Translations under genes and position numbers: made by a program | Shown: piece after piece, positions 41,203 to 63,500 of the stretch | How the letters are laid out: every line of letters starts with the position of its first letter | How positions within the stretch are numbered: position 1 is the first letter of the stretch | The notes under the pieces: model-generated | Databases searched by the model: none | Told to the model about the DNA's origin: nothing | The model's input: only the letters and a program-made list of their open reading frames with translations | Source: Naegleria gruberi | Taxonomy: Eukaryota | NCBI GenBank assembly: GCA_000004985.1 | Contig: GG738910.1 | Length of the DNA: 64,000 nucleotides | Direction: 5' to 3' (one strand)

Positions 41203-44200
41203 TCATTGTTCTTCCAATTCAATAATGATAGGAGAGTCAGTTGGCTTGAACTTTTCAATATCTTCCAATTTGAAACAAGATTCACGAATATTCTTTTGAG
41301 CAATACATGTGGCATCAGCTTTGTACCAATTGGTAACTTTGAATTTTGTCTTAGTGTCAAAGACAATCTTTTGACCAACTCTAACTCCACTCTTTGATTT
41401 GATGAGGAAAAGTGTTCCTTGCTTTGGAATATTCCAATTCAAACCAGCAACTTGGAATTTGTTCCAACCAACAGTTGACCCAGGCACAAATTTGGATCTG
41501 TCTACCTTCTTGTCAACTTTTTGTTCAACAATGAAACATTCGCCATCAAACTTTGGAACATCACCCATTTGAATAGATTGAGGATGCTCGTTAAAAATTT
41601 GTCTAGCTGATGTTTCACCTGCAATCAAATAAAGAATGGCCCATGTTCTTGGTGAGAGATTTGATCCACTAGCTATCTTTCCAATGACTTGCCTCTTGAC
41701 ATTGAACATTTCCTTGAGGAAAACATTCTTTCCACCAATCCAATTTGGATGATCAGCAAGCTTCATTGGTTCTATGATTAATTCTTGTGTGACAGGTTCA
41801 TCCAAATCATTAATGCTTGGTAAGTTAACGGTAACATTTCCTGCAGAAGGTGGTTTACCGACCATGGTAATTAATTGCTTATCCTTTCCAAGAATAGAGT
41901 TGAGCTTGTTGATTAATTCAGGATTTGGTGTTCCTGGAATATTTGTCTTCATCATTCCACCAACAATTTCAGCCCAATCTCTAGAATTCATTCCACATTG
42001 ATCTTGAATGGAAGCATCAGCACCTAGTTCAATAAATGCCTTGGCAGCATTTAGATTTCCATAAACTACAGCCTCAATCAAAGCGCAGCCTGCTACAAGT
42101 CCACGGACATTGGTGATTTCTCTTGGATCTAAATAGCCAGCAAGATGAGAATTATTCTTCAAGACTTCAATAAACTTATTTTCAAGCAAACCATATTCTC
42201 CACGAGCAATTTTTACGAGGTATGGATACAAAGGATCAACAAGAAGATCTGGATTGATACCATGACAGTACGCTCCTGGCATATTTCCTGCTTTGTCAAG
42301 AGCAAACATGTTGGCATTTCTTGAAATGAGTACCTTAATTACATCAAAGTTTCCACGTAACATTGCAATATGCAATGGTGTCATTCCAGCAAGGTCTTCT
42401 GCATTAATATCAGCTCCCAAGTCAAGTAAAACTTTAGCAGCTGCTGCGCAATTGTAAAGAGCAGTCAAGTGAAGTGGTGTTGCATATTGAATTATTTGAT
42501 TGTCTGGTCTAGTTCTACATTTGACAGAAGCTCCAAAACGATGTAATGTAAGGATACAATCAGCACGATCCTGTTCAGCAGCACTGAACACAGCATTGAA
42601 GCCATCAATCTTTGCACAGTATTGTAAATCTTCTTCAGTAGCTTTAGAAAGGAATATTTCAAGAATTTCAGCTTGACCTGTTCTACAGGCAATGATAAGA
42701 GGATTATCACCATTCTTATTTGGTGTATTTACCTCAGCTCCGTAGCTAATTAAAATTTCTGCAATTTCAACACTTCCTCTCTGAGCACATGAAATAAGTG
42801 GAACAACACCATCATCATTTCTAGTATTAGGATCAGATCCAGATTCAAGCAGAGTTTCAACAACATCAATACGAGCATTACAACAAGCAATCCACAAAGG
42901 TGTGTTTCCCTTATCATTTCTCCATTCCTTATCGGCTCCATTCTCCAACAATACCTTAACATAATCCAATTTACCAGTACCAGAAGCAACAAAAAGAAGG
43001 GATTCATATGCTCCTTCATATCCTACAATACTATTTACATCTATTGTTTTAGCAAGGGCCTTGAAGATTGGTAAACTTCCATAGTCCATAGCTAGATACA
43101 AGTGGTATTCGAATGGCTTGAAACCAGACTTGATACATTTTTCAAAAAGTTCGAGATTATTCTTCTTGATAGCCAAATCTAACATTTCTTCTGAGGCAGC
43201 ACATGTTTCACGATCCTCAATCCACTTGTAACATGTTCCATCGACAAAGTTACGTACTTCATTACTGATGTGGCAAATCTTTCTCTCTAATAAAATAGAG
43301 GCAGTTCTAAAGAAGTGTCTATCAAAAATGTAATTCATCAAATAGTCATTATGAGAGGCAATTTTAGCACCATTGTCAAGAAGGAATGTAACTGTACGAT
43401 CGAATCCAAAAAGAATGGCAAGATCGAGAGCTGACAAGCCGCTACTATTAATAATTGTCAAGGAGGCACCCAATTTAACCAATAACTTTACAGCAACCAA
43501 GTTACCTTTCATGCATGCAAGGTGTAGAGCAGTATTTCCATCTCTATCTGTGGAATCCAACAGATTCAAACACTTTTGATTAATGTGATCTTCCAATTCA
43601 CTGTTCTTCAATTGAACAACTGCTGTGTGGAGATCTGTAAATTCTTTCTTTCCATGAGTGTAATGAACCTTTGTCATGTTGTATTTGCTTGTTCCACCAC
43701 TACCTCCAGAGGTAAGACTCTTAAATTTAGGTGGTTGAATGTTTCTAGTACGAGTTTTCTTTGATTTGTTTTCGGTTTGTTCGGCCTCTTTCTTTGGAGC
43801 AAACATACTGGAGAATTTCAAATCATTGAGTACATTCTTATTTACACCTTCTCCATTCTTAAGCTTGGTAATCTCAGCTGAAATGACCATAATCTTGTCA
43901 TTCAAATAGGATTCAACTCCATTGAATGCTTTACAACTTCTCAATAATAATTCGCAATGGAATACAAATAATTCTTCACCATATTGCTTTCGATCAATAT
44001 TTGATAATTGCAATGTTTGAGAGGCCAATTGATCAACATGGTGAGAGGCCAATCTTTGGAGAGATTTGAGTCTAAGTCTTTGAGGGCAACGAGTTTGCTT
44101 GACTTCCAAAACCAATGGTTCCTTTCCTGTCATTCTCAATTCTGTCCTCAAACTCTTTTCAGATTCAGGCTCACATGATACATATCTTGTAATCAAACCC

Positions 44201-45285
44201 TTTCCTGAACTATTCACCGGCACATTGATACGGTAAATGTTTGAATCAACTGAAGGATTTGATCCACTAGCTGACAACATTTTCATACCTTCAGGCAGAA
44301 CAATATCTGCAGAAACAGTACTGGAAGAACTAACAGAATCAAAAATAGAGGTCAACTTTCCACAAATTACATCATTATTGTCATCATAGTTGGCATATCT
44401 ATAAGCTCCCTCAATAGTACCAACTTTTCTAATGTTATCTAATAATTCTAAATTGTGGTGAGACCCAAATCCAACTGTGTGAATAGTAATATCACCTCTG
44501 TAAACTCTATTAATTTCTTCTGATAAGTATTGTAAACCTCCTGGTTTTCCTACCTTTGAGAAATCTTCTCCATCAGTCAAGAAGGTAATAACAACATTTC
44601 CAAATGGCAAATTTTCTCTATCTTGACCACTTTCTCTGGTAATAATAGTGCAGGCCAGTTGGAAAGCAGATGCAAAATCAGTACCACCACCAGTAAATGC
44701 AGTTTCAATGTTTCTAATAATACTTTGCAGGGTTCCTTTCATATCAATTTCCTTAGCAGAACTTTCATAAGCAACCATTCTGCAAATGATTGCAGGATTA
44801 TTGAAGGATTGCTGAGCGAAATGTTTCAAAGAAGTGCAAACTTGTTCCCATGGTCTTCCCTGCATAGATCCACTTACATCAGCTAGGGCAATAAATAATG
44901 TGGGTTTAGGATTCAAGGAGGGATCATTGACATGTATTGTCAGCTCAGCAACACCAATATCATGATCATCTAAATCAATTAAATGTTCAACTTCAATTCT
45001 GAAAAGGCTCTTTTCTTCAACTTGTTCAACTTTTTGATTAGAATTGTTTGGGTTTAAAACTTGATCTATCAAGGAGGCTAAATTAACATTCTTCGGAGCA
45101 GATTCAACATCAAATTCATCCAAATTTCCTCTACAACATGGACATGTACGGTATTCGATAGTAGAAAAATAATTAGCAAGTGATTGTCTGGAAAATGCTC
45201 TTCCACAACATGGGACTACAATAGGATCTTCGAGTAATTCTCTTGAAATTGGGCAGAGTAAATCGTCGTGTTCTTCAGTTAGCAT
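41203..45285 (-). CDS. Large multidomain protein (1360 aa): N-terminal U-box/RING-like (LLCPISRELLEDPIVVPCCGRAFSRQSL...RTCPCCRGNL), a vWA domain with MIDAS (LFIALADVSGSMQG...ITFLTDGED), >=10 ankyrin repeats, C-terminal beta-rich domain.
   Basis: Single uninterrupted ORF. Motifs read directly, e.g. ANK: DGNTALHLACMKGNLVAVKLLVKLGASL, GNTPLWIACCNARIDVVETLLESGSDPN, GMTPLHIAMLRGNFDVIKVLISRNANM. Confidence 0.7.
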   Translation of the reverse strand: MLTEEHDDLLCPISRELLEDPIVVPCCGRAFSRQSLANYFSTIEYRTCPCCRGNLDEFDVESAPKNVNLASLIDQVLNPNNSNQKVEQVEEKSLFRIEVEHLIDLDDHDIGVAELTIHVNDPSLNPKPTLFIALADVSGSMQGRPWEQVCTSLKHFAQQSFNNPAIICRMVAYESSAKEIDMKGTLQSIIRNIETAFTGGGTDFASAFQLACTIITRESGQDRENLPFGNVVITFLTDGEDFSKVGKPGGLQYLSEEINRVYRGDITIHTVGFGSHHNLELLDNIRKVGTIEGAYRYANYDDNNDVICGKLTSIFDSVSSSSTVSADIVLPEGMKMLSASGSNPSVDSNIYRINVPVNSSGKGLITRYVSCEPESEKSLRTELRMTGKEPLVLEVKQTRCPQRLRLKSLQRLASHHVDQLASQTLQLSNIDRKQYGEELFVFHCELLLRSCKAFNGVESYLNDKIMVISAEITKLKNGEGVNKNVLNDLKFSSMFAPKKEAEQTENKSKKTRTRNIQPPKFKSLTSGGSGGTSKYNMTKVHYTHGKKEFTDLHTAVVQLKNSELEDHINQKCLNLLDSTDRDGNTALHLACMKGNLVAVKLLVKLGASLTIINSSGLSALDLAILFGFDRTVTFLLDNGAKIASHNDYLMNYIFDRHFFRTASILLERKICHISNEVRNFVDGTCYKWIEDRETCAASEEMLDLAIKKNNLELFEKCIKSGFKPFEYHLYLAMDYGSLPIFKALAKTIDVNSIVGYEGAYESLLFVASGTGKLDYVKVLLENGADKEWRNDKGNTPLWIACCNARIDVVETLLESGSDPNTRNDDGVVPLISCAQRGSVEIAEILISYGAEVNTPNKNGDNPLIIACRTGQAEILEIFLSKATEEDLQYCAKIDGFNAVFSAAEQDRADCILTLHRFGASVKCRTRPDNQIIQYATPLHLTALYNCAAAAKVLLDLGADINAEDLAGMTPLHIAMLRGNFDVIKVLISRNANMFALDKAGNMPGAYCHGINPDLLVDPLYPYLVKIARGEYGLLENKFIEVLKNNSHLAGYLDPREITNVRGLVAGCALIEAVVYGNLNAAKAFIELGADASIQDQCGMNSRDWAEIVGGMMKTNIPGTPNPELINKLNSILGKDKQLITMVGKPPSAGNVTVNLPSINDLDEPVTQELIIEPMKLADHPNWIGGKNVFLKEMFNVKRQVIGKIASGSNLSPRTWAILYLIAGETSARQIFNEHPQSIQMGDVPKFDGECFIVEQKVDKKVDRSKFVPGSTVGWNKFQVAGLNWNIPKQGTLFLIKSKSGVRVGQKIVFDTKTKFKVTNWYKADATCIAQKNIRESCFKLEDIEKFKPTDSPIIIELEEQ

Positions 45286-45429: not shown

Positions 45430-48400
45430 TTAAATGTTGGAAATTATTGCCTCACTCTTCTGATTTTCCTCATTTACATCCTCAAGAGATTCGAATTCTA
45501 TTATTGGATTTTCGTGGTGAATAGGTTGAATGAGATAGGTCTGACATTCTCCTTTTCCTTTCACCTGAACAATTCTCTCTTCGTAGGTGTACATATCATG
45601 TACTCTTTCATAGGTTGCTCTAGAAATTTGAATTCTTCCTGCTATTGAGGTTGATTCCATTCTTGAGGCAGTATTCACTGTATCACCCCACAAATCAAAT
45701 GCAAACTTTCTCTTTCCAATAACACCAGATGTAGCTGGTCCAGTATTGATACCAACACGGATATTAATTTGATGAGGAGGTATTAATTGTTGTTGATTAT
45801 TTTCAAATCTCTCTCTAATAAACTTCTCTATTGTTTTGGTATTGTAATTTTTGATAACTCCAAATGATTCACAAGCAAATTTACACATTCTTTCAGCATG
45901 ATCTGAATCTGGAAGTTCGTTGAGACCGGAAACTGCAAAATAAGCATCTCCAATAGTCTTGATTTTTTCAATATTATATTTCAATGTCAAATCATCAAAA
46001 CCATTAACAATTTCATTTAACAATCCTACCAATTCGTGGGAGGCCATGTTGGAAGACATTTGTGTGAATCCAACCATATCTGAGAAGAAACATGTAATGC
46101 AATTCAATTTCTCTGAAATAAAACTCTCTCCGGTAGAATTTTTCAACTTGTTAGCAACTGAGAAAGGTAGAATGTTTAGTAACAATTCTTCAGAGTGTTT
46201 CTTCTCATCCTGTAATAGGGCATTCTTTTTCTTCTCAGAGGTTTGATCAGCAATGAAACAAACAACCAACTCCTTTCCCTTATGCAGCACAACAAATATG
46301 CTAATCTTGCTTGGAAATTTCGTCTTGTTCTTTCTAATACATTCTCCTTCAAAAGTCTCTCCTGTGGAAACATCCTCGTTAGATTGATTGCTTCGTATAG
46401 ATTGCACTATTGCCTCTACGGATTTTTTTACCTTATCCTTAATAGCGTCCTCAAACAAATCGAATATTGATGTTCCTATGATTTCAGTCTTGTTGTATCC
46501 AAACATGGTTTGGGCAACTGGATTAAAGGCATCAATATCACCTTTTGAATTCCAACACATAGCTACTCCATCTATTGAGGCATTCAAAACAGATTGAATG
46601 ATAGAGGTATTGTTATCATTGAGAGCATATACCTTGTTAGATTTTGAGAAAGTCCTTTTTAAAGTAGCTGTGGCACCTGTGGATCTTGCCTTTGGATCTA
46701 CTTGATGGAATAAAATATAGTTTCTCAAGTCCTCAGAGCTTTCTATGGCATCTGTATTCAAATAGTTTAGAATCATTCTCAAAGAGTTAACTCCATCAGA
46801 ATAACTACTGAATTGCTTGTAAATAAAGAAGAATAATATTGTTATGAATGGAACAGTCACAATTCCAAAACCTGTGTCAAGTGAGAATAAGGGAACTGCC
46901 GCATAAATAGCAAATATACCTGAGAATTCTATCAATGTAGAGGACACATGTGTCATGTACAGTAAAACTTGGGCATACAGCTCGTGAACATCACTGGATT
47001 TTGATGAAACTTTTTGAGATAGCAAAACTGTCAAATCCAACATTGTAGCTACAACGGTGTCCATGCTTATTGTGCAATTGCTACCATATTTTTTCACTTC
47101 TTGAAAAGTACAGTTATCGTCTCCTCTAATTATCATATCGATTTCAGGGTACATGCCTATCACTAAAGTTTCGTCCTTCTTTGTTGAAGATCCATACATA
47201 CATAAATTCCAAAAATATCTTACTTTGGCCACCAATGGCTCTATTTCCGAATACAGGGCATAAACTTCTGAACTGGTTCTCAGTGGAGGGTTGATTATTG
47301 GCAAAGAGCTTGGAAGAGAGGTATGCATATACAGCTCTGTTACTGCAAAAATTAAATGTTGAAGATAATAGGCAGCGTCATTTGAATCTTTCATAGTAAC
47401 ATAGGATTGACGAGCATACACGCCGTTTCCAGTCATTTCCTCTACAAAAAGACCACAACTTAACGAAGTGAACACCAAAATACCAACAGCCGTGAATATT
47501 ACCAACATTCTTGGATTGAATACCTTACTGTATTCTATTTTAAGAGAAACATCTCTTCTACCATTTCTTGCATTCAACGAGTGATAAATTTTTCCAATAA
47601 TGTTTTTAGAAATAGACTTCTCATAAAGTTTGAAAATACTATCCGTAAATTTCAAATCCTTATAGACATAGTAAATAAATAATATTCCTAGTAGTAGATA
47701 AATGAATAAGAGACTAAAATACACTCCAATTATAATATACTGATACATAGCTCCATTATCGATTGATCTGTCCATATACTGGTTACAAAATGAATTAAAG
47801 GCCTGAATTACAGTGTCATTATTGTAGTATACCCACATAAATGCATAATCATCATATGTACTATTATGACCAGAATCTATAGAGCTGATCAGATCTGTGA
47901 CAGAGGATATGGCCATATTGGTAAAGTCAGCAATGGTGGCATTAATTTGAATGAAAGAAGTGAAAGATTGGTTATTACTACCGTACACAGTTTGAGGCTT
48001 GTAGAGAGGATAATACACTTCATGGAAATCAGAATATAAAGCAAGTGAAAACTTTCCATGACTGGCCATGTTTTTGATAGTTTGATAAGTATTAATGATG
48101 TCGTTAAGAGCGGCTCTATGACTCTGTTTATATTCGAGCACTGTTTCATATCCATAATCTTTCATCATCTGTGACCAATCAGATTCATTCTTATAGAGAT
48201 AGGAAAAGGCTTGGAAAGTTCTGACCTCAGATATTGTGTGAGTATTTGTAGAAATGGTGGAACATGAAGTAAATACAAGCATAACCTCAGAAGTTACCAT
48301 ATAGGAAAAGTAAATTGACATCGAAAGACAAACAGCAAAAAATAATAATGAAAATAAAACAAAAGCTACAAAAAGTGAACATCTGAAACTTGTAGAATGA

Positions 48401-50661
48401 GGAATAGCCAAATTGTTTCTGAACACGTCATTTCTGTTCTCAATCCCATCAAATGATTCCCCAACTACATTCATACTAGGATCTGATGCGTTATCATCTT
48501 CTGTTGCAGACATATTGAAGGCCTTGTTCTTTCTGTACATTGAATCTGAGCCACTAAATCTATATTTGGCCTTATTAGATACTGATCGCCTAACCTTTGC
48601 CTTCATTGCATTCTTTTCCTCTGCCTCTAACTTGATTGCCTCTGTGAATAATTCAGTTGCTTCTTCCTTGTTAAACATGAACGACTCTAAAAATTTTCCA
48701 TACGAAATAACTAAGTCCTTATCAGAAGGATATGCAGACAACAGATTATTGTAGGTAGTGTCAGAACTTTCAATAATTGAACCAATTTTAAGAACTGTAG
48801 CCTCTAGAATATTATAATTTACAATCTCATTCATTAATTCTTTCCATACATCTCTGTGCAGAGATCTCAAGATATCTTGTTGTAATTCCAGGTCTTCCAA
48901 ACTATTTTGAAGTTCATACCTTGTGGTTCCAGTTTCATTCTTGGCAATTTCTTTCAATTTTACATTAATTTGATATTTGTAGTAAAGGCCAGGTTTTCTT
49001 CTCTTAATTTTAGATAGTACTGATTTGGAAAAAGTTTGTGCGTTGGAATCGGCAATATTGACATTGGATATAATGGATGCAAAGAGAATGAGTAAACTGT
49101 AATCTGTGAATGAACTTTGAGTAGTAATTCCCTTGATAAATGCAATAGTTGCATCAACATCATAAACACTAACATTTCCACCAATTGATCTTATATAGGA
49201 GTTACTAAGAAAGGAAAATTTGAGAAAAAGGGCAAGAGATTTCTGGTATCCACTCTCCATAATACCTTGATAAAAGTAAAATGATCCAGACTCTAGTACC
49301 TTTAAGAAACTAAGGTCAGCTGCATTCTCATTACCATCTGTGGCTTCTTGGTTTGTAGTATTTTCGTCAGTGCTAGTACTGGCAAACTCTGAAATATTGT
49401 TCCTAATTAATTTCAAGTGACGTCTTACAACAAACTCAACAAACACACAATACGTAATACCAAATAAAACAGCTAGAACCAGAACAAAACAAGCAAGCCC
49501 TATCCCCAATCCATTATAGTCAAACGACGACTTTGGAACTGTGGTAAATAATATGTTTGAAACAAGTGCTGCCAAGGCTGCTCCAACTCTAGCTCCTAAA
49601 CCTATTCCGAACAATGAGTTATCAATTTTTTTGTAAAAAGGCATAGTTTTAAAATGAAGTATTGCCAATCCAATACTACATATCAAGTGTATAGCACTTC
49701 TTACGTATGAGTATTGAAAAGGTACCAACATTTGAACGCATAATTGTATCAAGGTTGTGGACTGCAAGCAGGCAATAATAATTGGACTCTCTGAAATGAA
49801 TGGGGTTGAATTGAGCATGTGACAATTTGTAGTAATAAAGAGGCAAACTCCATTCAAAATGATCAATAATATGGATGCCAATGAGAACACTATCGTAAAC
49901 AATATTTGTGTTTGCGACATTGACGAATAGCATGAAATTTTCTCATTTGGAAAACTAGTGAGTACACCTTGATCCAAATCACAATTGAAAATAGTATTCA
50001 TCATTACAAATAAGAATACGCTTGAACCAAGCAAAAATACTCTACATGAAATGGAAAAAACCTGTCTCAAATATGGCAGAAATTTCGAAGTAATCTTAAA
50101 GGCATACATTGATGCTCCTACAACACAACATAATATAAATACAAAACCAACTCCTACAAAGGAAATAACAACCGAGCCAATATAAGGAAGTCTATCCAAT
50201 GACAAACTTAATGGCCAGTTTAAAACGTTAGCCAACCATACTCCCCATTCTCCATATGTTGAGCTGGTCAAGCTTTCTCCTAAAACAGGCAAAAATATTC
50301 CAATATACAAAAAGTAAATATTCAAAACTAGGAAGAATATGTAATTCTTGTATCCTTTCTTCAATCCACCATCTTGAAAATAGAACAAATAGGAAAAAAA
50401 AGAGGAAAGTATTTTCTTTGCGTTGTACTGATTTGTTTGTAAACTAGTAGAGGTTGAAGCAACTGTACTAGTTTCGTTTGGATTACTCGTCTCGGCTGCT
50501 GGCGAAATTACACTACCAATAGCTATGGATGACATGGAAGAGTTCATATTAATGTTTTTAGTGGAGGGAGTCCTGTCAAATGCTGCTTTTGACACACCTC
50601 TTTCTAAAGGATGATGGCGATCCATTGTTTTTTTAGCCTTTGTTCTTTTGCCAACCATCAT
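45430..50661 (-). CDS. Multi-pass membrane class III adenylate cyclase (1743 aa): ~10 TM N-terminal block, additional TM segments with two large loops, a PAS domain, and a single C-terminal cyclase catalytic domain.
   Basis: Catalytic motifs: FFSDMVGFT (metal Asp), KIKTIGDAYFAVSGL (second metal Asp, substrate Lys), FAFDLWGDTVNTASRMES (substrate Asp, transition-state N/R). PAS: IDGVAMCWNSKGDIDAFNPVAQTMFGYNKTEIIGTSIFDLF. Single uninterrupted ORF from ATG. Confidence 0.75.
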   Translation of the reverse strand: MMVGKRTKAKKTMDRHHPLERGVSKAAFDRTPSTKNINMNSSMSSIAIGSVISPAAETSNPNETSTVASTSTSLQTNQYNAKKILSSFFSYLFYFQDGGLKKGYKNYIFFLVLNIYFLYIGIFLPVLGESLTSSTYGEWGVWLANVLNWPLSLSLDRLPYIGSVVISFVGVGFVFILCCVVGASMYAFKITSKFLPYLRQVFSISCRVFLLGSSVFLFVMMNTIFNCDLDQGVLTSFPNEKISCYSSMSQTQILFTIVFSLASILLIILNGVCLFITTNCHMLNSTPFISESPIIIACLQSTTLIQLCVQMLVPFQYSYVRSAIHLICSIGLAILHFKTMPFYKKIDNSLFGIGLGARVGAALAALVSNILFTTVPKSSFDYNGLGIGLACFVLVLAVLFGITYCVFVEFVVRRHLKLIRNNISEFASTSTDENTTNQEATDGNENAADLSFLKVLESGSFYFYQGIMESGYQKSLALFLKFSFLSNSYIRSIGGNVSVYDVDATIAFIKGITTQSSFTDYSLLILFASIISNVNIADSNAQTFSKSVLSKIKRRKPGLYYKYQINVKLKEIAKNETGTTRYELQNSLEDLELQQDILRSLHRDVWKELMNEIVNYNILEATVLKIGSIIESSDTTYNNLLSAYPSDKDLVISYGKFLESFMFNKEEATELFTEAIKLEAEEKNAMKAKVRRSVSNKAKYRFSGSDSMYRKNKAFNMSATEDDNASDPSMNVVGESFDGIENRNDVFRNNLAIPHSTSFRCSLFVAFVLFSLLFFAVCLSMSIYFSYMVTSEVMLVFTSCSTISTNTHTISEVRTFQAFSYLYKNESDWSQMMKDYGYETVLEYKQSHRAALNDIINTYQTIKNMASHGKFSLALYSDFHEVYYPLYKPQTVYGSNNQSFTSFIQINATIADFTNMAISSVTDLISSIDSGHNSTYDDYAFMWVYYNNDTVIQAFNSFCNQYMDRSIDNGAMYQYIIIGVYFSLLFIYLLLGILFIYYVYKDLKFTDSIFKLYEKSISKNIIGKIYHSLNARNGRRDVSLKIEYSKVFNPRMLVIFTAVGILVFTSLSCGLFVEEMTGNGVYARQSYVTMKDSNDAAYYLQHLIFAVTELYMHTSLPSSLPIINPPLRTSSEVYALYSEIEPLVAKVRYFWNLCMYGSSTKKDETLVIGMYPEIDMIIRGDDNCTFQEVKKYGSNCTISMDTVVATMLDLTVLLSQKVSSKSSDVHELYAQVLLYMTHVSSTLIEFSGIFAIYAAVPLFSLDTGFGIVTVPFITILFFFIYKQFSSYSDGVNSLRMILNYLNTDAIESSEDLRNYILFHQVDPKARSTGATATLKRTFSKSNKVYALNDNNTSIIQSVLNASIDGVAMCWNSKGDIDAFNPVAQTMFGYNKTEIIGTSIFDLFEDAIKDKVKKSVEAIVQSIRSNQSNEDVSTGETFEGECIRKNKTKFPSKISIFVVLHKGKELVVCFIADQTSEKKKNALLQDEKKHSEELLLNILPFSVANKLKNSTGESFISEKLNCITCFFSDMVGFTQMSSNMASHELVGLLNEIVNGFDDLTLKYNIEKIKTIGDAYFAVSGLNELPDSDHAERMCKFACESFGVIKNYNTKTIEKFIRERFENNQQQLIPPHQINIRVGINTGPATSGVIGKRKFAFDLWGDTVNTASRMESTSIAGRIQISRATYERVHDMYTYEERIVQVKGKGECQTYLIQPIHHENPIIEFESLEDVNEENQKSEAIISNI

Positions 50662-52136: not shown

Positions 52137-53528
52137 ATGCAAAGACTTGTCACATGGATTCTTGTTTGTCTGTGCTTGGTGACTTGTAATGCAAATATGG
52201 CTAGTGGTGTTGAGCAGAACAGGAATGTGAGAAAATATCATAATAATATCAAAGCTGGGAGCACTTCATCATATGTTCAGCCTGGCATTAATAATTCTTT
52301 ACAACCTCTGTTTGGACATAATATTGGATTAATTACTAACCCGTCTGGACAAAATTATCAATTATCACAATCAACAATTGATTTACTGATGGAGTTGACA
52401 AAACAGGGCTATTTGAATTTGGTTGCACTTTTTGCTCCCGAACATGGAATTTATGGTGACAAGCCTCCAGGGCAATTCTTTAATGATTATATTGACCCAT
52501 ACACTAAATTACCTGTTTATAGTTTATATAGTGAAACTAATCCGACTCATGAACCACTTCCTTACATGTTGAAAAATGTTACAATGCTAGTTTCGGATAT
52601 TCAAGATGTTGGAATGAGACCTTTCACGTTCATTAGTACAATGTGTGAAGGATTAATTGGAGCAAAGAAAAATTCAATCAAGTTCACAGTTTTGGATAGA
52701 ATTAATTATTTGAATGGAAACATTATAGCTGGTCCAATTTTGAATATGAAATACAAAAGTTTTATTGGAATTTATAAATTACCAATTGTAACTGGTATGA
52801 CTATGGGCGAATTGGCTCTATTGTTTGACAAGGAAATGTATATTAATTTAGACAATGATCTAACAATTATTCCAATAGTAGATGATAGTTCTCAAACCTA
52901 CGGGAAATACAGACCTTCATTCAGAGAAATAAGACAAGTATTCAGACAACCAATATTATATCTACCACCAAGTCCAAATTTGCCAACAATAGAAAGTGTA
53001 GAGTTGTACTCTGGAATGGTCTTGTTTGAAAGTCTGTTCAACATATCTATTGGAAGAGGAACAACAAATCCATTCCAAGTCATTGGTTCTCCATTCATTG
53101 ATTCAAGAAAATGGATGAGCTTTTTGCAACAAGAATTTGCTACAGAACTATCTCTCTATTTCAAATACGTTCAGCTTTCATATCCCACTTATTTTATTCC
53201 ATCTCTTGATATCCACCAGAATGCTCCATGTGAGGGAATTCGTTTAGTGTTAAAACCACTCGATTACAACAATATTACAAACATTGAAGAGTACTATAGA
53301 AGCTTTTTACCCCTCTCTCTTACCCTCATGAAATCTTTACTCAAACTTTACGGAAAGGAATTGCTAATTTGGAGAACTGATTTTGCTCATATTCTCATTG
53401 GATCTGAAGAAACAATATCACAAATATTGGACAATTCTGTGACAGTGGGAGAGATTGTCAATTCATGGAATAAGGATCTTGTCAAGTTCGACAAGAATGT
53501 CAGGCAAAAGTATTTAATTTACAAATGA
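52137..53528 (+). CDS. Secreted DUF1343 / NamZ-like protein (463 aa) with N-terminal signal peptide. Bacterial-type exo-beta-N-acetylmuramidase family.
   Basis: Family motifs: IGLITNPSGQN, LVALFAPEHGIYGD, LPVYSLYSETNPTHEPLPYML, MLVSDIQDVGMRPFTFISTM, FTVLDRINYLNG, IYKLPIVTGMTMGELALLFDKE. Signal peptide MQRLVTWILVCLCLVTCNA. Confidence 0.6.
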   Translation: MQRLVTWILVCLCLVTCNANMASGVEQNRNVRKYHNNIKAGSTSSYVQPGINNSLQPLFGHNIGLITNPSGQNYQLSQSTIDLLMELTKQGYLNLVALFAPEHGIYGDKPPGQFFNDYIDPYTKLPVYSLYSETNPTHEPLPYMLKNVTMLVSDIQDVGMRPFTFISTMCEGLIGAKKNSIKFTVLDRINYLNGNIIAGPILNMKYKSFIGIYKLPIVTGMTMGELALLFDKEMYINLDNDLTIIPIVDDSSQTYGKYRPSFREIRQVFRQPILYLPPSPNLPTIESVELYSGMVLFESLFNISIGRGTTNPFQVIGSPFIDSRKWMSFLQQEFATELSLYFKYVQLSYPTYFIPSLDIHQNAPCEGIRLVLKPLDYNNITNIEEYYRSFLPLSLTLMKSLLKLYGKELLIWRTDFAHILIGSEETISQILDNSVTVGEIVNSWNKDLVKFDKNVRQKYLIYK

Positions 53529-54969: not shown

Positions 54970-56107
54970 ATGACTGAACCAACACCAGTCGATATCACAC
55001 AAATCCCACCACTATCTCATTCCACCAAGGTTGCCTTAATATCTGGTGTTACTGGACAAGATGGATCCTATCTTGCTGAATTACTTTTAGATAAAGGATA
55101 TACTGTATATGGCATGATTAGACGTTCATCATCTTTTAATACAGGAAGAGTTGAACACCTCTATAAGGATGTTCATATTGTTGATGCGAGTAAGTTTAAC
55201 ATTTTATTATTGCTTAGTTTAATTAGAGTTTAAACTTGTGTACGGTGATTTAACTGATACTGGTAACATTATATCTATCATTTCAAAGATAAGACCTGAT
55301 GAAATATACAACCTGGGAGCTCAATCTCATGTTAAAATAAGCTTTGAAATGCCTGAATACACAGCAAATGTTGATGGTATTGGTACCTTACGATTTCTTG
55401 AAGCAATCCGAGCATGTGGTTTGGAAACGAAGACAAGATTTTATCAAGCAAGCACATCAGAGTTGTATGGCTTGGTACAAGAAATTCCTCAAAAAGAAAC
55501 TACTCCATTTTATCCTCGATCTCCTTATGCTTGCGCTAAGTTGTACAGTTACTGGATTGTTATTAACTATAGAGAAGCTTATAACATGTTCGCCTTGAAT
55601 GGTATTCTTTTCAATCATGAAAGTATCCGTAGAGGTCCAACCTTTGTAACAAGAAAAATCACAATGGCAGTAGCTCGTATTCATCTAGGTCTTCAAGAGT
55701 GCTTGTATTTGGGTAATTTGGATGCTGAAAGAGATTGGGGCCACGCAAAGGATTACGTTGAGGCTATGTGGTTGATGCTCCAACAAGAGAAGCCATCAGA
55801 CTATTGTGTTGCCACTGGAGAAAAGCACAAAGTTAGAGAATTTGTTGAAAAATCGTTTGCTGTTCTTGGTAAGAAGGTTGAATGGAAAGGAAAGTCAGGA
55901 ACTGTTGATGAATATGGTGAAGTTGATGGTGCTGTTAGAATTAGAGTTGACCCTCGTTATTTCAGACCAACCGAAGTTGAATTATTAATTGGAGACCCAA
56001 CAAAGGCCGAAACTGAATTAGGATGGAAGAGAAAAGTCAGCTTTGAGGAACTAGTAAAAGGAATGGTAAAAGGAGACGTGGAGTTATTGGGTAGCCAATG
56101 TAACTAG
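54970..56107 (+). CDS. gmd: GDP-mannose 4,6-dehydratase, 2 exons (54970..55189, 55227..56107). Intron 55190..55226 (GTAAGTTTAACATTTTATTATTGCTTAGTTTAATTAG).
   Basis: Motifs: [24 protein letters not shown] (NADP-binding GxxGxxG), [40 protein letters not shown] (Yxxx K), FNHESIRRG. The junction ...[14 protein letters not shown] restores the conserved sequence. Confidence 0.85.
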
Positions 56108-57502: not shown

Positions 57503-60500
57503 TTATTGTTGTGGTTGTCTTGGCTCTAATTCTAAAGACCTATCCCACAATGTATCTTCATCAACAAGTTGAATGTTTCCAAGAGAAAGTAAGGATTGGA
57601 TAGAAGGATTGGTTGAAACTCCACTAGTGTAAAGTTTGTAATCCTCCAAAGTTACTGTTTGGATTTGATTGATAATTCTCTTGATGAAATCAACAGTTTC
57701 GAAATAGTAAGGTTGCATTTGATATTGTCTAATTTCTAAAATAATTTTAGAAACTTGTCTTCGTTTGAATACGTTGATTAGGCCATCACGAATATAGTCT
57801 GGATTACCATCGTTGATGAATGTTAAATCTTTCAGATACATGCTTAATGGAGGAATGCATGGAGGGAGGCAAAGTTGAAGAGCTTGTCTCATGTTCTTGT
57901 TTGCTTGCTCTTGAGAGCACAATTTCTTCAAATCCTCATACAATGTCAAGTACTCTGTTGGAACTGTTGCCCAAGTCTTTTTCAATCTGTAAACAGAAAC
58001 ATTGGATAAACCGCTGAGTATTTCTGAAAGACCATGGAAATTATTGATATCTCTTAATGCATTTGCCAACTCTATAAATTTGATAATGTATCTTCTTCTA
58101 ATTTTGAGATCATTTTGTGAAAGAATAGAACATGCAACAAATTGAGTCATCTTATTCCATCGATCAGTCAAGTGGGCAATATTTGGAGCTTCGTCATATT
58201 TTGAAGATTTTGTCCAGGCACCACTAAGGCATTCCTTTGGTTCAATCTTTTGGAAATATTCGTATTCAATGAGTGTGATTTGTCTTGCGATTTCAATTGG
58301 GCTCCATTCGAGAATATTAAAGGCAACATGTTCACTAAAGTTTTCTGGAATAATAGGGTCAGGAACATCAGTTTGTTTAGCATGTTTAACAGCCTTATCG
58401 TTATCTTTGATCAGCTTGTTACTGAGCGTTTTTCTGAGAGCATTGCAGAAGGAAGAAAATTCTTTGATATTTGCAACTGAATCCAAAAATTGAATCAAAC
58501 GAACAAGCAATAAATTATCAAAATCATGGAAATACTTTTCGACCCACATTTTAACAGCATTGATAACTCTGAGGAGTACTTTAGTGTTGGCTTCTGGTTG
58601 AATATCTTGCTTTTTCTGTTCTTCAGCAATATTGAATCTGTCAATTAACTTATCCATTAGGACATGGCTAGAACAGAAGGAACGATAGGTGAGGAAGAAG
58701 ACATCTCTGAACTTTGGGTCCGTTTCCTTGTCGCTGGTGATTTTTTCAATAAGCTTGTCAAGAGTAGCTGCTTTGATTTGATTATTCTCCACTACATAGT
58801 TCTTCTCAGAGTCTTCAGTAAGGATAAGCTTCTCGTGATTTTTCTCAATGTTCTCTAATTTGGCTTGGTGAGATATCAAGAGGCAGTCAATACTTTCAAG
58901 GATATATGATTCATTTTCTGATTGTGATAGTGGGAAGCAACAAACAGACAATAGAGTACCTAAAGCCCATTTCCATCTGTCGTCATGAATATCAATGCTG
59001 AAAACAGGAATAAGCTTTTGTACAATTGTAACGAATAAAGGAGTTAACATGGTATTTGTCAACATTGGATCCATTCTCTTTCTTACATTTTCAGCATCTT
59101 GTGAAGATTGGTTGAATTGCTCAATATATTTCATAATTAAAAGCAATACCTCCTCGATAACAGGAGAATATTTTTCGTTTTCCATAATCATCAATTCCCA
59201 TTTTTGTTCAATGAAACAGACCAAAATTTCAATAACAATTGTTTTGATCATTCTTCTAGTAACCCTGACAGGATATGCAATGTGCTTGTTAATGGCAATC
59301 GAAAGAAGTTTTACAAAACTAACGAGCACATCTGGAGACTTGTGGTTCCAAATCTCAGGCCATTCTTCTTTCTTTCTATTTCTCAAACAGTGAACAAACG
59401 AAACAGCAAAGTGAGACTGAAGATCATTGTCCATATTTCTTAATAATTTTTCTACATGGGCAATCTCAAAGAAAAGTGGCATTACTAGTTTGCAAATTTC
59501 ATTTCTAGAATCAGCAGAGCTAAACTTTGTTAATGAGTCTAGCTTTACAATTAATCTATTAATTATTCTCAGAGTTATTGTTCTTAAATCTGGTTTGTTG
59601 GCCTTTTGTAAGATACCAATAACAAACTTTAGAAGAAATGGTGTTTCACTACACATGTTAACTTCTACAAATATGCTTGAGTCAATTATAATTTCAGCAA
59701 AATCAAACTTTAGACCCACCACAACAGGAGAAGATTTGAATTGTGTTGTAAGTACATAATCATTGAGGGCTGTCTTGACAAATTTTCTAAATCTAACATC
59801 ATCTTTCATTTCTTTCATTAGTGAAATTTCCAATAAATCACACATGAACAAGGCCAAGTGCCTATTGACAACCTTAACAAAATGTAACTTGATAGGGTCG
59901 CCTGAGGCTGTGAGTAGTCTTTCCATCAATTTTGTTTGTAAGCTTCTCATCTTGGTGTAGAAAACTTCTGTAAATACGTCTTGTTTCTTTCCCTCCAAAA
60001 TGTAGAGTTTCATTGATTTGACAAGTGTATCAAACAAAAACCAAGAAAGTTTCAATGAGTCCAAAGCATTAATTTCTTCAACAGTGCTTTCTTGGCTTTC
60101 TGATGATTGGTTAGAGCGTGGTTTAGAGAAGTAGGTTGCTCTTCTTGGTCTATTGGCTACGCTATCGTTTGTAGAAGAAGAAGCTCCTGAACTTTCTGTA
60201 GTATTCGAGTTTGATTCTTTGGTTCTACTCTCTGTTTCTTTGGTATGACATGATTTGAAGAATTCTTCCCATCTTTCTGCCAACAGTAAACAAAAGCTTG
60301 TATTATCTGGCGTTGGAGGATTTTTGAACATGTAATAAATATATCCATTCAAAAATTGATCTCTCTCATAATAATCTAATCTGGAATTACTTCTCATACC
60401 TCTCAACATGTGGAGAAGAGTTTCAAAGACTAGCAATGAAAGGGAGGTTGTGGTTGTTGATGTTGATGTTGTTGTCTCTTTCACAGATTCAACATTTTTA

Positions 60501-63500
60501 GTTCTGGAGGTGAGAGTGGCTGTTCTCTTTTTTACAAATCCAGCAATACCTAGAGTTTTCTCAGATACAGAGTTATTGTTTTGAATTTCTGAACTTGTAG
60601 AATTCTGCAAAGAGGCTGTTTTAACATTAGCAATAATGTACATTACACAATTCAAAAATACAGGGAAATGATAAAGCATTTGAGACCAATGAGCTTTCTG
60701 GAAGTTTTTCAAAATACTTTCAGCATCAGAAAGTGACATGGCATCATTCAATTGACTCAAAAAGGAACCCTTTGGTAAATTATTGTTCTTTGAATTAATG
60801 AAAAGCCCAGAGTTTGTTAATAAAGATACAGCATTCTTGTCTGATGGGAAAATTGATGATTTGGCAATAACATTAAATCTAAAAATGGATTTTCCATTAG
60901 CATACTTTTGTAAAGACTTATCAGAAAGATAATTGTTTGGTAAAGTTGTGCACTTATATATTGGTAATTTTTTCATACCATTCTTAAATCCTTCATCTTG
61001 GACCAGTTTCAGAATAGAGAAGCCAATCACTGTAGTATCAGCTTTTCCAACTACACCTGATACTGGTTGACCTCTCTTGGAGGAAACATGTCTAAATTCA
61101 AAAACTAAATGATGGTTATCATGAATAGGGAATGGAAGTTGAATTTTGATTTGGTCAAAGAACAGAGGATACTTTTCGTGATAAGTAATACTGGATATGG
61201 CTTGTTGCTTAATATCCATACCTCCAATATAGTTTCTACTTCCTTCAGAGAAAATTCTACTAGCTCCAACAAGAACGCCTCCACTCATTTCATCATTTTC
61301 TCTTAACAAAACTCTAACGGCAACTGATTTGTAAGAATTTGGAAGTGATGTCATATTGATGTTATCAAGTAAAATATACAAAACATGATTGAATGTTAAA
61401 TCTAACTTTGGTGCTGTTGTGAAGAGAGTTGTGGATTTTGAAGAATGAGAAAAAGTATTGAAAGACATGGTTATGGTTTCATCATCATCAAATGTGAAGG
61501 AATCAGCATTGTCTTCTGAGACAGAAACAGCTTTAACTTCATGCACTCCAGTATCATAGAGTGGCCTAACTTGATGATATTTAGAAATATTATCAGGATT
61601 ACTATCAATAAGCATTGTAAATTTTGCAGAAATATTTTTGAAAGTAATATTGTCAACTTTTAAAGTTCCTTTCTGTTTGGAGTAGTCTCTTTGGTGTTCA
61701 ATGAGACTAGAAACATTGCACCTTTGTTTCTTTCCATCTAAGTGAGGGACAACAAATAGCTTGTCAAAGATAATTGCTCCTTTTCTCACTTCATATGTTG
61801 GTGGCTCTTCAATGCTTACTTTGAGTTCATTAGATGTGACAGATTCTCGTTTTTCCTCAAAGAGAGGCTCGACGGCACAGATCAGAGGGGATTTAAATTG
61901 ATCCAAGAACGAGTAAGCTGTTTTAAGTTTTTCCAAGTATGATTTTTTAGATGATTCATCAATCTTTTTCTTTGCTAGATAGGTATTATCAACATATGAG
62001 TTATCTGAGAATATTCTCTTAACCCAGAGAACTAGATAAATGTTTGGATTCTTATCCTTCACAGAAAATATAGCCTTCATCTTGGCCTCTGTACTAAGTA
62101 AATCTTTAGGGAAAGATTTTTCAATTCCCAATTGGGTAAGAGTTCCCATACCAGTGTTCAAAGTAAAATTGAACTCTTCTGAAATTCTTGATTCTGTCTT
62201 TTTATCATACAGATACAGTGTCGCATAGAGTGGTTCCAGATTAATATCAGTATTTTCAAATATTAAACCTTTGGCATTGATGAGAATTTTGAGAGATTGA
62301 TCGACTTGGAAAGGATTTGAAGGTATTCCTCTCTTGCAAACATCCTCTTCCAAATTTGACAGTCTATAAAAAGGGTTATAGATTGAGGCAACTCTATTTG
62401 AAGTTTCTTCATACATCTTTTCGGATACTTCTCGGAAGTTTAACTCTGTGTTAACAATTTCTTCTTCTTCCTCTTCTTCTACATCAACTTCTAATGTTTC
62501 AAGATCGACATCACTTCTTCTTGGGTCAACTAAACTACTACCACTATTGGTCAAAATCATTCCCAAACCAGTATTGGAAGCAGATGAATACTTGCCTCCT
62601 AAATATTCTTGTGAGTTGACAGAAAGATAATTCGTTGAAATTGGAGAAAATGATGAACTGGCAGGAGGAGCAACATTCACAGTTGGGTTGGAAAGTACAT
62701 TATTGGTAGTGTTACTTCTAGCTTTAAGTCTTTTTGGAGTAAGAGGTAGAGAGGCACTTGGAGTAAGAGATGGTTTGTAAGGTGAATCATCAATTCTAAT
62801 CTGATTGGCTGATAGTGGAGCAGAAATTGGTACAATTGTACTTCCGATTTGTGAGCTAATAAGTAAATTACAAGTGGTTGATGTAGAATCAGACAATTGC
62901 TTTCCTGTAATTGGATTCAATCCAGCCTTTGCGCTCATCTCCAAATCCCAATCCAATTGATTTTTAATTTTCGAACCATCTAAATTATTATTATTAATTC
63001 TAACAATTTGTTTTTCATCTAGAATTAATCGTGTTGCAAATTGAAGAGCAGGATGATCGGAAAGTGAATTATTAAGAATTTGTCTAATAGATTCATCATT
63101 ATTTGATGTTAGTACATCATTAAAGTGGATTGGTAAATTCTCATGAACCATCTCTATGAAATTATCTGGTGGTGAAAAGAGAGGATGTTCCACAAAATCA
63201 TCAGATTGTTTTGGTCGACTTGTAACTGGTACATTTGTTGTTGCTGTTGTTAGACCATTAGTATTATTACCTGTTGTACTAGTGGTTGTTGATGAATTAT
63301 TGTTTCTACATTCTGTATTTTCCTTCTGTGGTGATACTTGTTGTTGATCAACTTCATTTTCTTGTGAGAAGACTTTAACTCCAACAGCCGATGATGCTGC
63401 AAGAGGAGAAGAATTCTTGAAGGAAGATGATTTGCTGTTGGTGTTGGTGGAGGAGGCAGACGATGGGGTATTAGAAGGTCTGGGGGATCTAGGAGTCAAA

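What the first reader, a model, noticed from the sequence alone, without database searches (positions are those of the whole stretch)
45430..50661. Membrane-embedded PAS-domain adenylate cyclase with a single catalytic domain and non-canonical topology
The catalytic domain has both metal-binding Asp, the ATP-specifying Lys (EKIKTIGDAY) and Asp (FDLWGD), and Asn/Arg transition-state residues. It should therefore be an active homodimeric AC, not a GC. Upstream are a PAS domain and an ~1100-aa region with three TM clusters and two large loops. This does not match the classical 2x6TM-2xcyclase, single-TM receptor, or His-kinase/receiver cyclase layouts known from D. discoideum. It may be a lineage-specific sensor cyclase.
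Basis: partly seen in the sequence, partly recalled or inferred. Interest (0 to 1): 0.55.

Follow-up and report, generated by a model that had tools for sequence, protein, structure and literature searches.

The report
Naegleria membrane PAS adenylate cyclase paralog
This is an already annotated gene of the amoeba Naegleria gruberi, one of dozens of paralogs that join a 12-helix membrane module with two outward-facing helical-bundle domains to an intracellular PAS domain and one adenylate cyclase domain; it is a real but uncharacterised receptor-type cAMP-making enzyme, not a one-off oddity.

Summary
The ORF is real: window 45430-50661, minus strand, 1743 aa. It is 100% identical to the GenBank protein [quoted passage not shown]. 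The organism is therefore Naegleria, not a dictyostelid.

The single class III cyclase domain carries all seven canonical residues, including the ATP-specifying pair: D1528, D1572, K1568, D1656, R1635, N1663 and R1667. A PAS domain (1355-1474) feeds an 18-residue linker whose length is invariant across the family. That linker leads into the LLxNILP transducer helix.

The membrane part is not 6+6 TM. Hydropathy, positive-inside counts, conserved Cys and glycosylation sites, and a confident AlphaFold model (pLDDT 87.5) agree on 12 TM, N-in:
- an 8-TM bundle;
- a cytosolic all-helical domain with a TmcB-type TPR;
- two TM-ectodomain-TM units.

About 100 representatives share the module. Every named one is Naegleria or Willaertia, and 26 of 31 long members carry the cyclase.

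But the gene and its family are already annotated, and nothing has been tested experimentally. Interest is low to moderate.

The parts
45430..50661 (-). Whole ORF, 1743 aa plus stop. It equals the N. gruberi protein P0001, whose annotated model starts at Met13.
50347..50661 (-). Hydrophilic Ser/Thr-rich N-terminal tail (aa 1-105), predicted cytosolic. No signal-peptide-like hydrophobic start.
49420..50346 (-). Eight-TM bundle (aa 106-414). TM helices lie at about 108-126, 163-181, 201-219, 254-272, 295-313, 319-337, 354-372 and 389-407. The conserved Cys pair C227/C244 sits in an outside loop. The conserved 'MPFY..N' motif sits in an inside loop.
48397..49419 (-). Cytosolic all-helical domain (aa 415-755). 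It includes the Pfam TPR_TmcB match at aa 581-684 (window 48610-48921) and a disordered stretch at about 700-740.
47668..48375 (-). TM9 (763-781), ectodomain 1 (782-979) and TM10 (980-998). The ectodomain is a four-helix bundle plus a beta hairpin. Cys C800/C959 are conserved in 97% of members and the sequon N907 in 28 of 31.
47503..47667 (-). Short cytosolic loop (aa 999-1053) with the family motif GKIYHxL. It is rich in Lys and Arg.
46825..47502 (-). TM11 (1054-1072), ectodomain 2 (1073-1260) and TM12 (1261-1279). The ectodomain is a four-helix bundle. The conserved N1183-C1184-T motif combines a sequon and a Cys.
46600..46824 (-). Cytosolic juxtamembrane linker (aa 1280-1354) with the family motif LRxMLNY.
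46240..46599 (-). PAS domain (aa 1355-1474), ending in the 'DQT' variant of the family's D(I/V)T motif. There is no FixL-type heme His and no LOV Cys motif.
46117..46239 (-). Signalling helix and cyclase-transducer element (aa 1475-1515). An 18-aa spacer of invariant length is followed by LLLNILPFSVANKLK. This region aligns to the helix that precedes the AC9 catalytic domain.
45526..46116 (-). Single class III cyclase homology domain (aa 1516-1712) with D1528, K1568, D1572, R1635, D1656, N1663 and R1667.

Best explanation
The ORF encodes a receptor-type, membrane-integral class IIIa adenylate cyclase of Naegleria gruberi. It belongs to a large paralog family confined, as far as seen, to Naegleria and Willaertia.

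Shown here:
- One catalytic domain carries both the C1-type residues (two metal Asp, Arg1635) and the C2-type residues (Lys1568/Asp1656 for adenine, Asn1663/Arg1667 for the transition state).
- A cytosolic PAS domain joins the catalytic domain through a linker of strictly conserved length and a transducer helix.
- The membrane part is a 12-TM, N-in/C-in module. It consists of an 8-TM bundle, a cytosolic TmcB-type TPR domain, and two TM-ectodomain-TM units. The ectodomains are glycosylation- and disulfide-marked four-helix bundles.

Inferred:
- Two chains must pair head-to-tail through their catalytic domains to form two symmetric ATP sites, as in mycobacterial Cya/Rv1625c.
- A signal sensed outside by the helical-bundle ectodomains, and/or inside by the PAS domain, changes the register or rotation of the dimeric helix between PAS and cyclase. 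This switches cAMP synthesis on or off.
- The ligand and the role of the 8-TM/TPR part are unknown.
For: Identity: 100% match to the N. gruberi protein named 'membrane bound PAS domain-containing adenylate/guanylate cyclase'.

Catalytic domain:
- Pfam E 9e-51.
- Best solved relatives are AC9, AC8 and AC5, with C1 and C2 matched about equally (103.7 versus 102.8 bits), and the homodimeric mycobacterial Cya (E 1e-39 to 1e-41).
- All seven functional residues are present. They are also kept in 19 of 31 family members, and most of the rest are truncated gene models.

Linker:
- The spacer from the PAS D(I/V)T motif to LLxNILP is exactly 18 aa in all 36 family sequences.
- The LLxNILPxxVAxxLK helix aligns to the AC9 pre-C2 helix.

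Topology:
- Family-averaged hydropathy gives 12 TM.
- Lys+Arg flanking the TMs number 22 on predicted inside loops and 5 on outside loops. Conserved Cys (227/244, 800/959, 1184) and conserved sequons (N907 28/31, N933 17/31, N1183 23/30) lie only in outside loops.

Structure:
- AF2 models reach pLDDT 87.5 (aa 91-1290) and 88.5, pTM 0.82 (aa 745-1295).

Family: 100 representatives at E<1e-3, 34 at E<1e-30. All named ones are Naegleria or Willaertia.
Against: - No enzymatic, localisation or expression data exist for this protein or any paralog in what I could search.
- Homodimerisation is inferred from the residue pattern, not modelled.
- The PAS cofactor is unknown.
- This paralog deviates from the family in two ways: DQT instead of DIT, and a 2-aa insertion between the transducer helix and the catalytic domain. 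Either could alter coupling.
- The 8-TM bundle has no informative structural relative, so its role is open.
Confidence: 0.75

Rival explanations
1. The PAS domain is the real sensor, detecting intracellular O2, redox state, light or a metabolite. The membrane module only anchors or localises the enzyme.
For: - PAS is present in 29 of 31 family members.
- It is coupled to the cyclase by a linker of invariant length.
- The closest solved PAS domains are the heme sensors FixL and EcDOS (E 0.003-0.01), with weak NCBIfam hits to FixL and DosP.
- N. gruberi has an unusually large PAS repertoire (PMC10468136).
Against: - The FixL heme-ligating His aligns to Ser1414, and no His is conserved in that helix across the family. 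[quoted passage not shown]
- No LOV 'NCRFL'-type motif is present in the sequence.
- The ectodomains carry family-conserved Cys pairs and glycosylation sequons. This argues that they are functional rather than a passive anchor.
- This rival is not exclusive of the main explanation.
Confidence: 0.3
2. The membrane module is a transporter or channel, and the protein is a transporter-cyclase fusion like the ciliate and apicomplexan P-type-ATPase or K+-channel cyclases.
For: - The 8-TM bundle has no assigned function.
- Transporter-cyclase fusions exist in protists. P0004, a P-type ATPase plus cyclase, appeared among the cyclase-domain hits.
- Weak Foldseek rows to TTYH2, ASCT2 and XPR1 (E 2.5-2.8).
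Against: - Those Foldseek rows are not significant. No PDB hit reached E<=1e-3.
- No Pfam transporter or channel family matches.
Confidence: 0.12
3. It is a guanylate cyclase, a dual-specificity cyclase, or a catalytically dead regulatory paralog.
For: - The GenBank name leaves 'adenylate/guanylate' open.
- Some relatives are degenerate. P0041 has I/K at the Asn/Arg positions and P0065 has E/K at the second metal Asp and Arg1635 positions. P0003 lacks the Asn/Arg pair.
Against: - The query has Lys1568/Asp1656, the ATP pair, rather than the Glu/Cys-type pair of guanylate cyclases.
- It keeps every metal, phosphate and transition-state residue.
Confidence: 0.07
4. It has the classical 6TM-C1-6TM-C2 topology with a degenerate first catalytic domain.
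For: There are twelve TM helices in total, and a large cytosolic loop follows the first TM group.
Against: - The TM split is 8+4, not 6+6.
- The cytosolic loop matches TPR_TmcB (E 8e-14). In a confident model it is all-helical, with only two 3-residue strands, and has no alpha/beta cyclase fold.
- There is only one Guanylate_cyc match, even at E 0.1.
Confidence: 0.01

Closest known systems
Mycobacterial membrane adenylate cyclase Cya / Rv1625c (PDB 4p2f, 5o5k, 7yz9, 7yzi)
   Same: - Membrane-anchored.
- One class IIIa catalytic domain per chain, carrying all canonical residues.
- Therefore active only as a homodimer.
- A helical transducer lies between the membrane and the catalytic domain.
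- Sequence match E about 1e-39 to 1e-43.
   Different: - Cya has a 6-TM anchor.
- It has no ectodomains, no TPR domain and no PAS domain.
- It is bacterial.
- The Naegleria protein has 12 TM (8+4), two about 190-aa ectodomains and a PAS domain.
Mammalian AC9/AC8/AC5 and Dictyostelium ACA type (2x6TM, C1+C2)
   Same: - These are the best sequence matches for the catalytic domain and the preceding helix (E 3e-58).
- They also have 12 TM in total.
   Different: - Those enzymes are pseudo-heterodimers, with two complementary half-degenerate catalytic domains in one chain and 6+6 TM.
- Here there is one complete domain and an 8+4 TM split.
- A TPR domain sits where C1 would be.
Protist receptor-type cyclases: Dictyostelium ACG and trypanosomatid receptor adenylate cyclases
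   Same: Extracellular sensor domain, single catalytic domain, homodimeric, in a free-living or parasitic protist. This rests on general knowledge; ACG and the Trypanosoma enzymes are mentioned in PMC9928731.
   Different: - Those have one or two TM.
- Their ectodomains are CHASE-like or periplasmic-binding-protein-like.
- They have no PAS domain and no TmcB-like module.
Dictyostelium TmcB/TmcC family (Pfam PF25474 TPR_TmcB)
   Same: - The cytosolic loop matches the TmcB TPR model over nearly its full length (positions 21-124 of 125, E 8e-14, 52 bits against a cut-off of 27).
- UniProt names N. fowleri paralogs 'TmcB/TmcC TPR repeats domain-containing protein'.
- TmcB is described as a regulator of the cAMP pathway in Dictyostelium sexual development (PMC8516963 and PMC12750705, citing Muramoto et al. 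2005).
   Different: - Homology outside the TPR stretch could not be tested, because no Dictyostelium sequence was obtainable.
- phmmer with the 1200-aa module returned only Naegleria and Willaertia among the named hits.
- From memory, and not verified here, TmcB proteins are not known to carry PAS or cyclase domains.
Bacterial four-helix-bundle and NIT sensor domains (NasR, PcaY_PP, McpN, PilJ, NarQ, Tar/Tsr)
   Same: - Shared fold, and the same placement between two TM helices that continue into the bundle.
   Different: - Identity is only 4-11%, and no Pfam 4HB_MCP or NIT match was found.
- The fold is generic. Designed bundles score alike.
- Here two such units are in tandem in one eukaryotic chain, with glycosylation and disulfide marks.
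PAS-coupled signalling enzymes (FixL-type PAS histidine kinases; PAS/LOV-cyclases)
   Same: - A PAS domain ends in a D-x-T motif and runs into a helical linker of fixed length before the output domain.
- The nearest solved PAS domain is FixL.
   Different: - There is no heme His and no flavin-Cys motif.
- The cofactor is unknown.
- The output is a class III cyclase reached through a transducer element.

Membership tests
Class III nucleotidyl cyclase (cyclase homology domain) | Significant match to the Guanylate_cyc (PF00211) profile over its full length | tested here: met
   E 9e-51, 172.5 bits, profile positions 3-182 of 183.
Class III nucleotidyl cyclase (cyclase homology domain) | Two metal-binding Asp residues | tested here: met
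   D1528 and D1572 align to the AC9 C1 metal Asp residues.
Class III nucleotidyl cyclase (cyclase homology domain) | Transition-state Asn and Arg, plus the phosphate-binding Arg | tested here: met
   N1663 and R1667 align to AC9 C2 'VNIASRM'. R1635 aligns to C1 'RVGVHTG'.
Adenylate-specific (versus guanylate-specific) class III cyclase | Lys and Asp at the two base-specifying positions (guanylate cyclases have Glu and Cys/Ser-type residues) | tested here: met
   K1568 in EKIKTIGD and D1656 in FDLWGD align to the AC9 C2 Lys and Asp. They are conserved in the family. The product itself was not assayed.
Class IIIa subclass with cyclase-transducer element | Conserved helix LLxNILPxxVAxxLK immediately N-terminal to the catalytic domain | tested here: met
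   Residues 1491-1507 (ELLLNILPFSVANKLKN) align to the AC9 pre-C2 helix 'LLRNIIPYHVAEQLK'. The motif is present in all family members. The CTE concept is cited from PMC10622942 and general knowledge.
Homodimeric single-domain cyclase (Rv1625c type) | C1-type and C2-type residues in the same domain, with only one domain per chain | tested here: met
   Dimer formation itself was not tested.
Classical 2x6TM pseudo-heterodimeric adenylate cyclase (mammalian AC1-9, ACA) | Two catalytic domains (C1, C2) separated by a second 6-TM block | tested here: not met
   There is one Guanylate_cyc match only. The TM pattern is 8+1+2+1. The large cytosolic loop is helical TPR.
PAS domain | Match to PAS profiles above the gathering score | tested here: met
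   PAS_9 E 2e-13 (50.9 bits, cut-off 27) and PAS E 1e-6. TIGR00229 E 1.4e-6.
Heme-PAS (FixL/DosP type) | Proximal His on the F-alpha helix | tested here: not met
   The FixL His aligns to Ser1414. No conserved His is present in this region of the family.
TmcB/TmcC family | TPR_TmcB (PF25474) domain | tested here: met
   E 8e-14, 52.1 bits against a cut-off of 27, aa 581-684. Present in 29 of 31 family members.
TmcB/TmcC family | Homology of the multi-pass membrane part to Dictyostelium TmcB | not testable with these tools
   No Dictyostelium sequence was retrievable, and the afdb50 library was unavailable. The only weak support is a collinear 'MPFY..N' loop motif shared with P0003, another TPR_TmcB-cyclase protein (hhalign E 0.69).
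Bacterial 4HB_MCP / NIT sensor domains | Four-helix-bundle fold flanked by TM helices | tested here: met
Bacterial 4HB_MCP / NIT sensor domains | Sequence-level membership (profile match) | tested here: not met

The most novel reading that the evidence does not exclude
The TmcB-like 12-TM module may be a previously undescribed eukaryotic receptor type. In it, an 8-TM/TPR core and two tandem four-helix-bundle ectodomains bind extracellular ligands and drive cAMP synthesis directly, through PAS and a fixed-length helix.

By 'Rosetta-stone' logic, stand-alone TmcB proteins of Dictyostelium, which are genetically linked to cAMP signalling, would then act by physically regulating an adenylate cyclase. 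The dozens of Naegleria and Willaertia paralogs would be a chemosensory receptor repertoire analogous to bacterial chemoreceptors.
Probability: 0.3. Interest if true: 0.55.

Novelty: already known. Interest (0 to 1): 0.27.

Why it matters
As a finding it mostly re-derives an existing annotation. This protein is already named a membrane-bound PAS-domain adenylate/guanylate cyclase in GenBank. The expansion of membrane cyclases in Naegleria has been noted since the genome paper, as paraphrased in PMC9928731.

What this analysis adds is a coherent, testable anatomy for the whole family:
- 12 TM in an 8+4 arrangement;
- a cytosolic TmcB-type TPR domain;
- two glycosylated, disulfide-marked four-helix-bundle ectodomains;
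- a PAS-to-cyclase linker of invariant length.

If the ectodomains are ligand sensors, the family would be a large direct receptor-to-cAMP repertoire in free-living and pathogenic Naegleria (N. fowleri has orthologous paralogs). The fusion would also suggest how the poorly understood TmcB proteins of Dictyostelium connect to cAMP signalling. None of this has been tested experimentally.

Tried and rejected
1. Word-indexed homolog searches:
- The full protein gave only itself plus cyclase-domain hits.
- The N-terminal 1250 aa gave only itself.
- The family alignment gave irrelevant multi-PAS bacterial proteins.
- The exhaustive representative search was what revealed the family.

2. The self sequence was not among the representative hits. 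The best was 33% identity. This is unexplained and does not affect the conclusions.

3. The afdb50 fold library was unavailable, so no comparison with AlphaFold models of Dictyostelium TmcB was possible.

5. The heme-PAS (FixL-like) idea was rejected because the His is absent.

6. The classical 6TM-C1-6TM-C2 reading with a degenerate C1 was rejected.

7. Profile-profile comparison with P0003, a metagenomic TPR_TmcB-cyclase protein, outside the cyclase found only the TPR stretch (E 2.8e-4, probability 41%). Deeper homology of the membrane parts remains unproven.

8. The Naegleria genome paper (Cell 2010) is not held in the library. Its statements are cited only through later papers. The TmcB primary paper (Muramoto 2005) is likewise cited only through reference lists.
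Full report
**1. What is at the coordinates**

Window 45430-50661 holds one uninterrupted minus-strand ORF of 1743 codons. At the local base composition the chance of 1743 codons without a stop is about 1e-55. No competing ORF longer than 113 aa lies on the other strand.

The product is 100% identical to a GenBank/UniProt protein of 1731 aa named [quoted passage not shown]. The annotated model starts at Met13 of the ORF.

The window is therefore N. gruberi (Heterolobosea, Discoba). The roughly 34% G+C content and the assembly gaps fit a draft scaffold.

**2. Domains**

Pfam finds four things:
- Guanylate_cyc at 1516-1712 (E 9e-51);
- PAS_9 at 1366-1474 (E 2e-13);
- PAS at 1356-1464 (E 1e-6);
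- TPR_TmcB (PF25474) at 581-684 (E 8e-14, 52 bits against a cut-off of 27).

There is only one cyclase domain, even at E 0.1.

**3. Catalytic residues**

Alignments to solved AC9 show that the single domain matches C1 and C2 about equally (103.7 and 102.8 bits). It carries both sets of functional residues (numbering):
- the C1-type metal Asp residues, D1528 in FFSDMVGFT and D1572 in IGDAY;
- the C1-type Arg, R1635 in IRVGINTG;
- the C2-type adenine-specifying K1568 (EKIKTIGD) and D1656 (FDLWGD);
- the transition-state N1663 and R1667 (TVNTASRM).

The next-best solved relatives are the homodimeric mycobacterial Cya/Rv1625c catalytic domains (E 1e-39 to 1e-43).

By established class III cyclase logic, a domain with all of these residues forms two symmetric active sites as a homodimer and uses ATP. 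Activity itself is inferred, not shown.

**4. The PAS-to-cyclase connection**

The PAS domain ends in D-Q-T, a variant of the family's D-(I/V)-T motif. From that motif to the LLxNILP helix there are exactly 18 residues in all 36 family sequences examined. The LLLNILPFSVANKLK helix aligns to the helix preceding the AC9 C2 domain. This is the cyclase-transducer element (concept cited in PMC10622942).

Strict length conservation is what one expects of a coiled-coil signalling helix whose register matters. This particular paralog has a 2-residue insertion between the transducer helix and the catalytic core: 29 aa, against 27 in 26 of the other sequences.

The nearest solved PAS domains are the heme sensors FixL and EcDOS (E 0.003-0.01) (weak NCBIfam hits). 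However, the heme-ligating His of FixL aligns to Ser1414, and no His is conserved in that helix in the family. That His is the main determinant of heme binding (PMC10468136). The PAS ligand is therefore unknown.

**5. Membrane topology**

Single-sequence hydropathy and family-averaged hydropathy over 31 aligned members give 12 TM segments:
- eight between 108 and 407;
- four more at 763-781, 980-998, 1054-1072 and 1261-1279.

An N-in/C-in orientation is supported in three ways:
- Lys+Arg in TM-flanking stretches number 22 on predicted inside loops and 5 on outside loops.
- The family-conserved cysteines (C227/C244 at 81%, C800/C959 at 97%, C1184 at 87%) lie only in predicted outside loops.
- The conserved N-glycosylation sequons (N907 in 28/31, N933 in 17/31, N1183 in 23/30) also lie only in predicted outside loops.

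This places the 355-aa loop with TPR_TmcB in the cytosol. The two loops 782-979 and 1073-1260 face outside, and PAS and cyclase are in the cytosol.

There are four TM groups and three large loops.

**6. Structure prediction**

An AlphaFold2 model of aa 91-1290, built on an alignment of 52 family sequences, reached mean pLDDT 87.5 and pTM 0.66. It is almost entirely helical and shows, in order:
- eight TM helices;
- a long extension of TM8 into a helical repeat domain (about 445-699);
- a disordered stretch (700-740);
- TM9-TM12, whose helices extend about 40 residues beyond the membrane.

A separate model of aa 745-1295 reached pLDDT 88.5 and pTM 0.82. In it each outside loop forms a four-helix bundle together with the extensions of its two flanking TM helices. 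The first bundle also has a beta hairpin (884-908).

The large cytosolic loop is not a degenerate cyclase domain.

**7. Fold comparison**

- Foldseek against the PDB found nothing at E<=1e-3.
- The full N-terminal model gave the same list, with nothing specific for the 8-TM bundle.
- Designed four-helix bundles and talin rod domains score nearly as high, and identities are 4-16%.

I therefore take this as a fold-level and architectural resemblance (TM - helical-bundle sensor - TM). It is not evidence of homology or of a particular ligand.

**8. The family**

An exhaustive phmmer search with aa 91-1290 against 1.84 billion representatives found 100 proteins at E<1e-3 and 34 at E<1e-30. The best was 33% identical over the whole 1200 aa.

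Every hit that carries a name is from N. gruberi, N. fowleri, N. lovaniensis or Willaertia magna. The short hits are fragments of genes of about 1500-1830 aa.

Of 31 long members aligned, 29 have PAS, 29 have TPR_TmcB and 26 have the cyclase domain. Nineteen keep all seven catalytic residues, and most of the others are truncated models.

At least six full-length N. gruberi paralogs were identified by name: the query, P0006, P0018, P0132, P0151 and P0152.

This is consistent with the literature. Naegleria contains many membrane-bound adenylate/guanylate cyclases, at least 81 in the pangenome analysis, paraphrasing the 2010 genome paper (PMC9928731). N. gruberi also has 50-80 PAS proteins, an unusually large number for a eukaryote (PMC10468136).

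I found no experimental characterisation of any member.

**9. The TmcB link**

The Pfam model derives from Dictyostelium TmcB/TmcC. The tmcB family is described as acting in, or regulating, the cAMP pathway during Dictyostelium sexual development (PMC8516963; PMC12750705; both cite Muramoto et al. 2005, reference seen).

Here a TmcB-type TPR domain, and perhaps the whole 8-TM + TPR unit, is covalently fused to an adenylate cyclase.

A second, very divergent TPR_TmcB-cyclase protein (P0003, 2165 aa) comes from a metagenomic eukaryotic contig with a same-strand gene array. Apart from the cyclase, only its TPR stretch aligns to the Naegleria family profile (E 2.8e-4, probability 41%). There is also an insignificant collinear "MPFY..N" loop motif.

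Whether the membrane part is homologous to Dictyostelium TmcB could not be tested. No sequence or AlphaFold library was available.

**10. How it most likely works**

Shown:
- the domain order and topology;
- a complete ATP-type active-site residue set;
- a fixed-length PAS-helix-transducer connection;
- conserved extracellular Cys and glycan marks.

Inferred:
- two chains dimerise through the catalytic domains, the coiled-coil linker and probably the PAS domains;
- a stimulus at the helical-bundle ectodomains, transmitted through TM10/TM12 and the juxtamembrane linker (motif LRxMLNY), and/or a stimulus at the PAS domain, changes the linker conformation and gates cAMP synthesis.

Rivals are listed separately: PAS as the only sensor, a transporter-cyclase fusion, GC or inactive, and the classical topology. 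The last is refuted, and the others are less supported.

**11. Novelty and score**

The gene, its name and its gross domain content are already public. The family expansion is already noted in the literature. The finding as written is therefore "already known", apart from the wrong organism.

The following are not described in anything I could search and are testable:
- the 8+4 topology;
- the twin four-helix-bundle ectodomains;
- the invariant 18-aa linker;
- the cyclase-TmcB fusion as a clue to TmcB function.

These justify a low-to-moderate interest of about 0.27. The more novel reading is a new eukaryotic receptor module plus a Rosetta-stone explanation of TmcB. I give it probability about 0.3 and an interest of about 0.55 if true.

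Noticed in passing
window 52137-53528 (+): A 463-aa ORF matches both halves of the bacterial exo-beta-N-acetylmuramidase NamZ (NamZ_N E 1e-58, NamZ_C E 3e-28). A peptidoglycan-recycling-type enzyme in a bacterivorous amoeba may reflect horizontal transfer or a role in digesting prey cell walls.
   Followed up: no
window 57503-63940 (-): A 2145-aa ORF combines a DOCK-type C2 (DHR-1) domain with RasGEF_N and RasGEF domains. No DHR-2 match was found at E<=1e-3. This is an unusual domain combination.
   Followed up: no
window 41203-45285 (-): The immediate downstream neighbour is a 1360-aa ORF with an N-terminal U-box/zf-Nse-like RING, a VWA domain and a long ankyrin-repeat array.
   Followed up: no
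window 55238-56107 (+): A GDP-mannose 4,6-dehydratase ORF matches the profile only from position 58. The true gene probably has an upstream exon or an earlier start.
   Followed up: no
window 2666-7981; also 1633-1682, 11318-11367, 15302-15351, 24829-24878, 25863-25912: Runs of N mark scaffold gaps: one of 5316 bases and five of exactly 50 bases. The very long 'ORFs' listed across 1781-8921 are artefacts of translating N runs.
   Followed up: yes
L001 3001-9498 (P0003; ENA ERZ21831265 ctg79675l): A 2165-aa metagenomic eukaryotic protein also combines TPR_TmcB, many TM segments and a C-terminal cyclase domain. It has no PAS domain and has lost the transition-state Asn/Arg ('VAIANAMES'). Its neighbours all lie on the same strand, as in kinetoplastid-like gene arrays.
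   Followed up: partly
window 46117-46248 (aa 1472-1515): This paralog departs from its family at the signalling junction. It has DQT instead of D(I/V)T, and a 2-residue insertion between the transducer helix and the catalytic core (29 aa against 27).
   Followed up: partly
search result: The exhaustive representative search did not return the query's own protein. The best hit was 33% identical. Short fragments of 40-58% identity (P0021, P0035, P0053) may come from an ortholog in another Naegleria-like organism.
   Followed up: no
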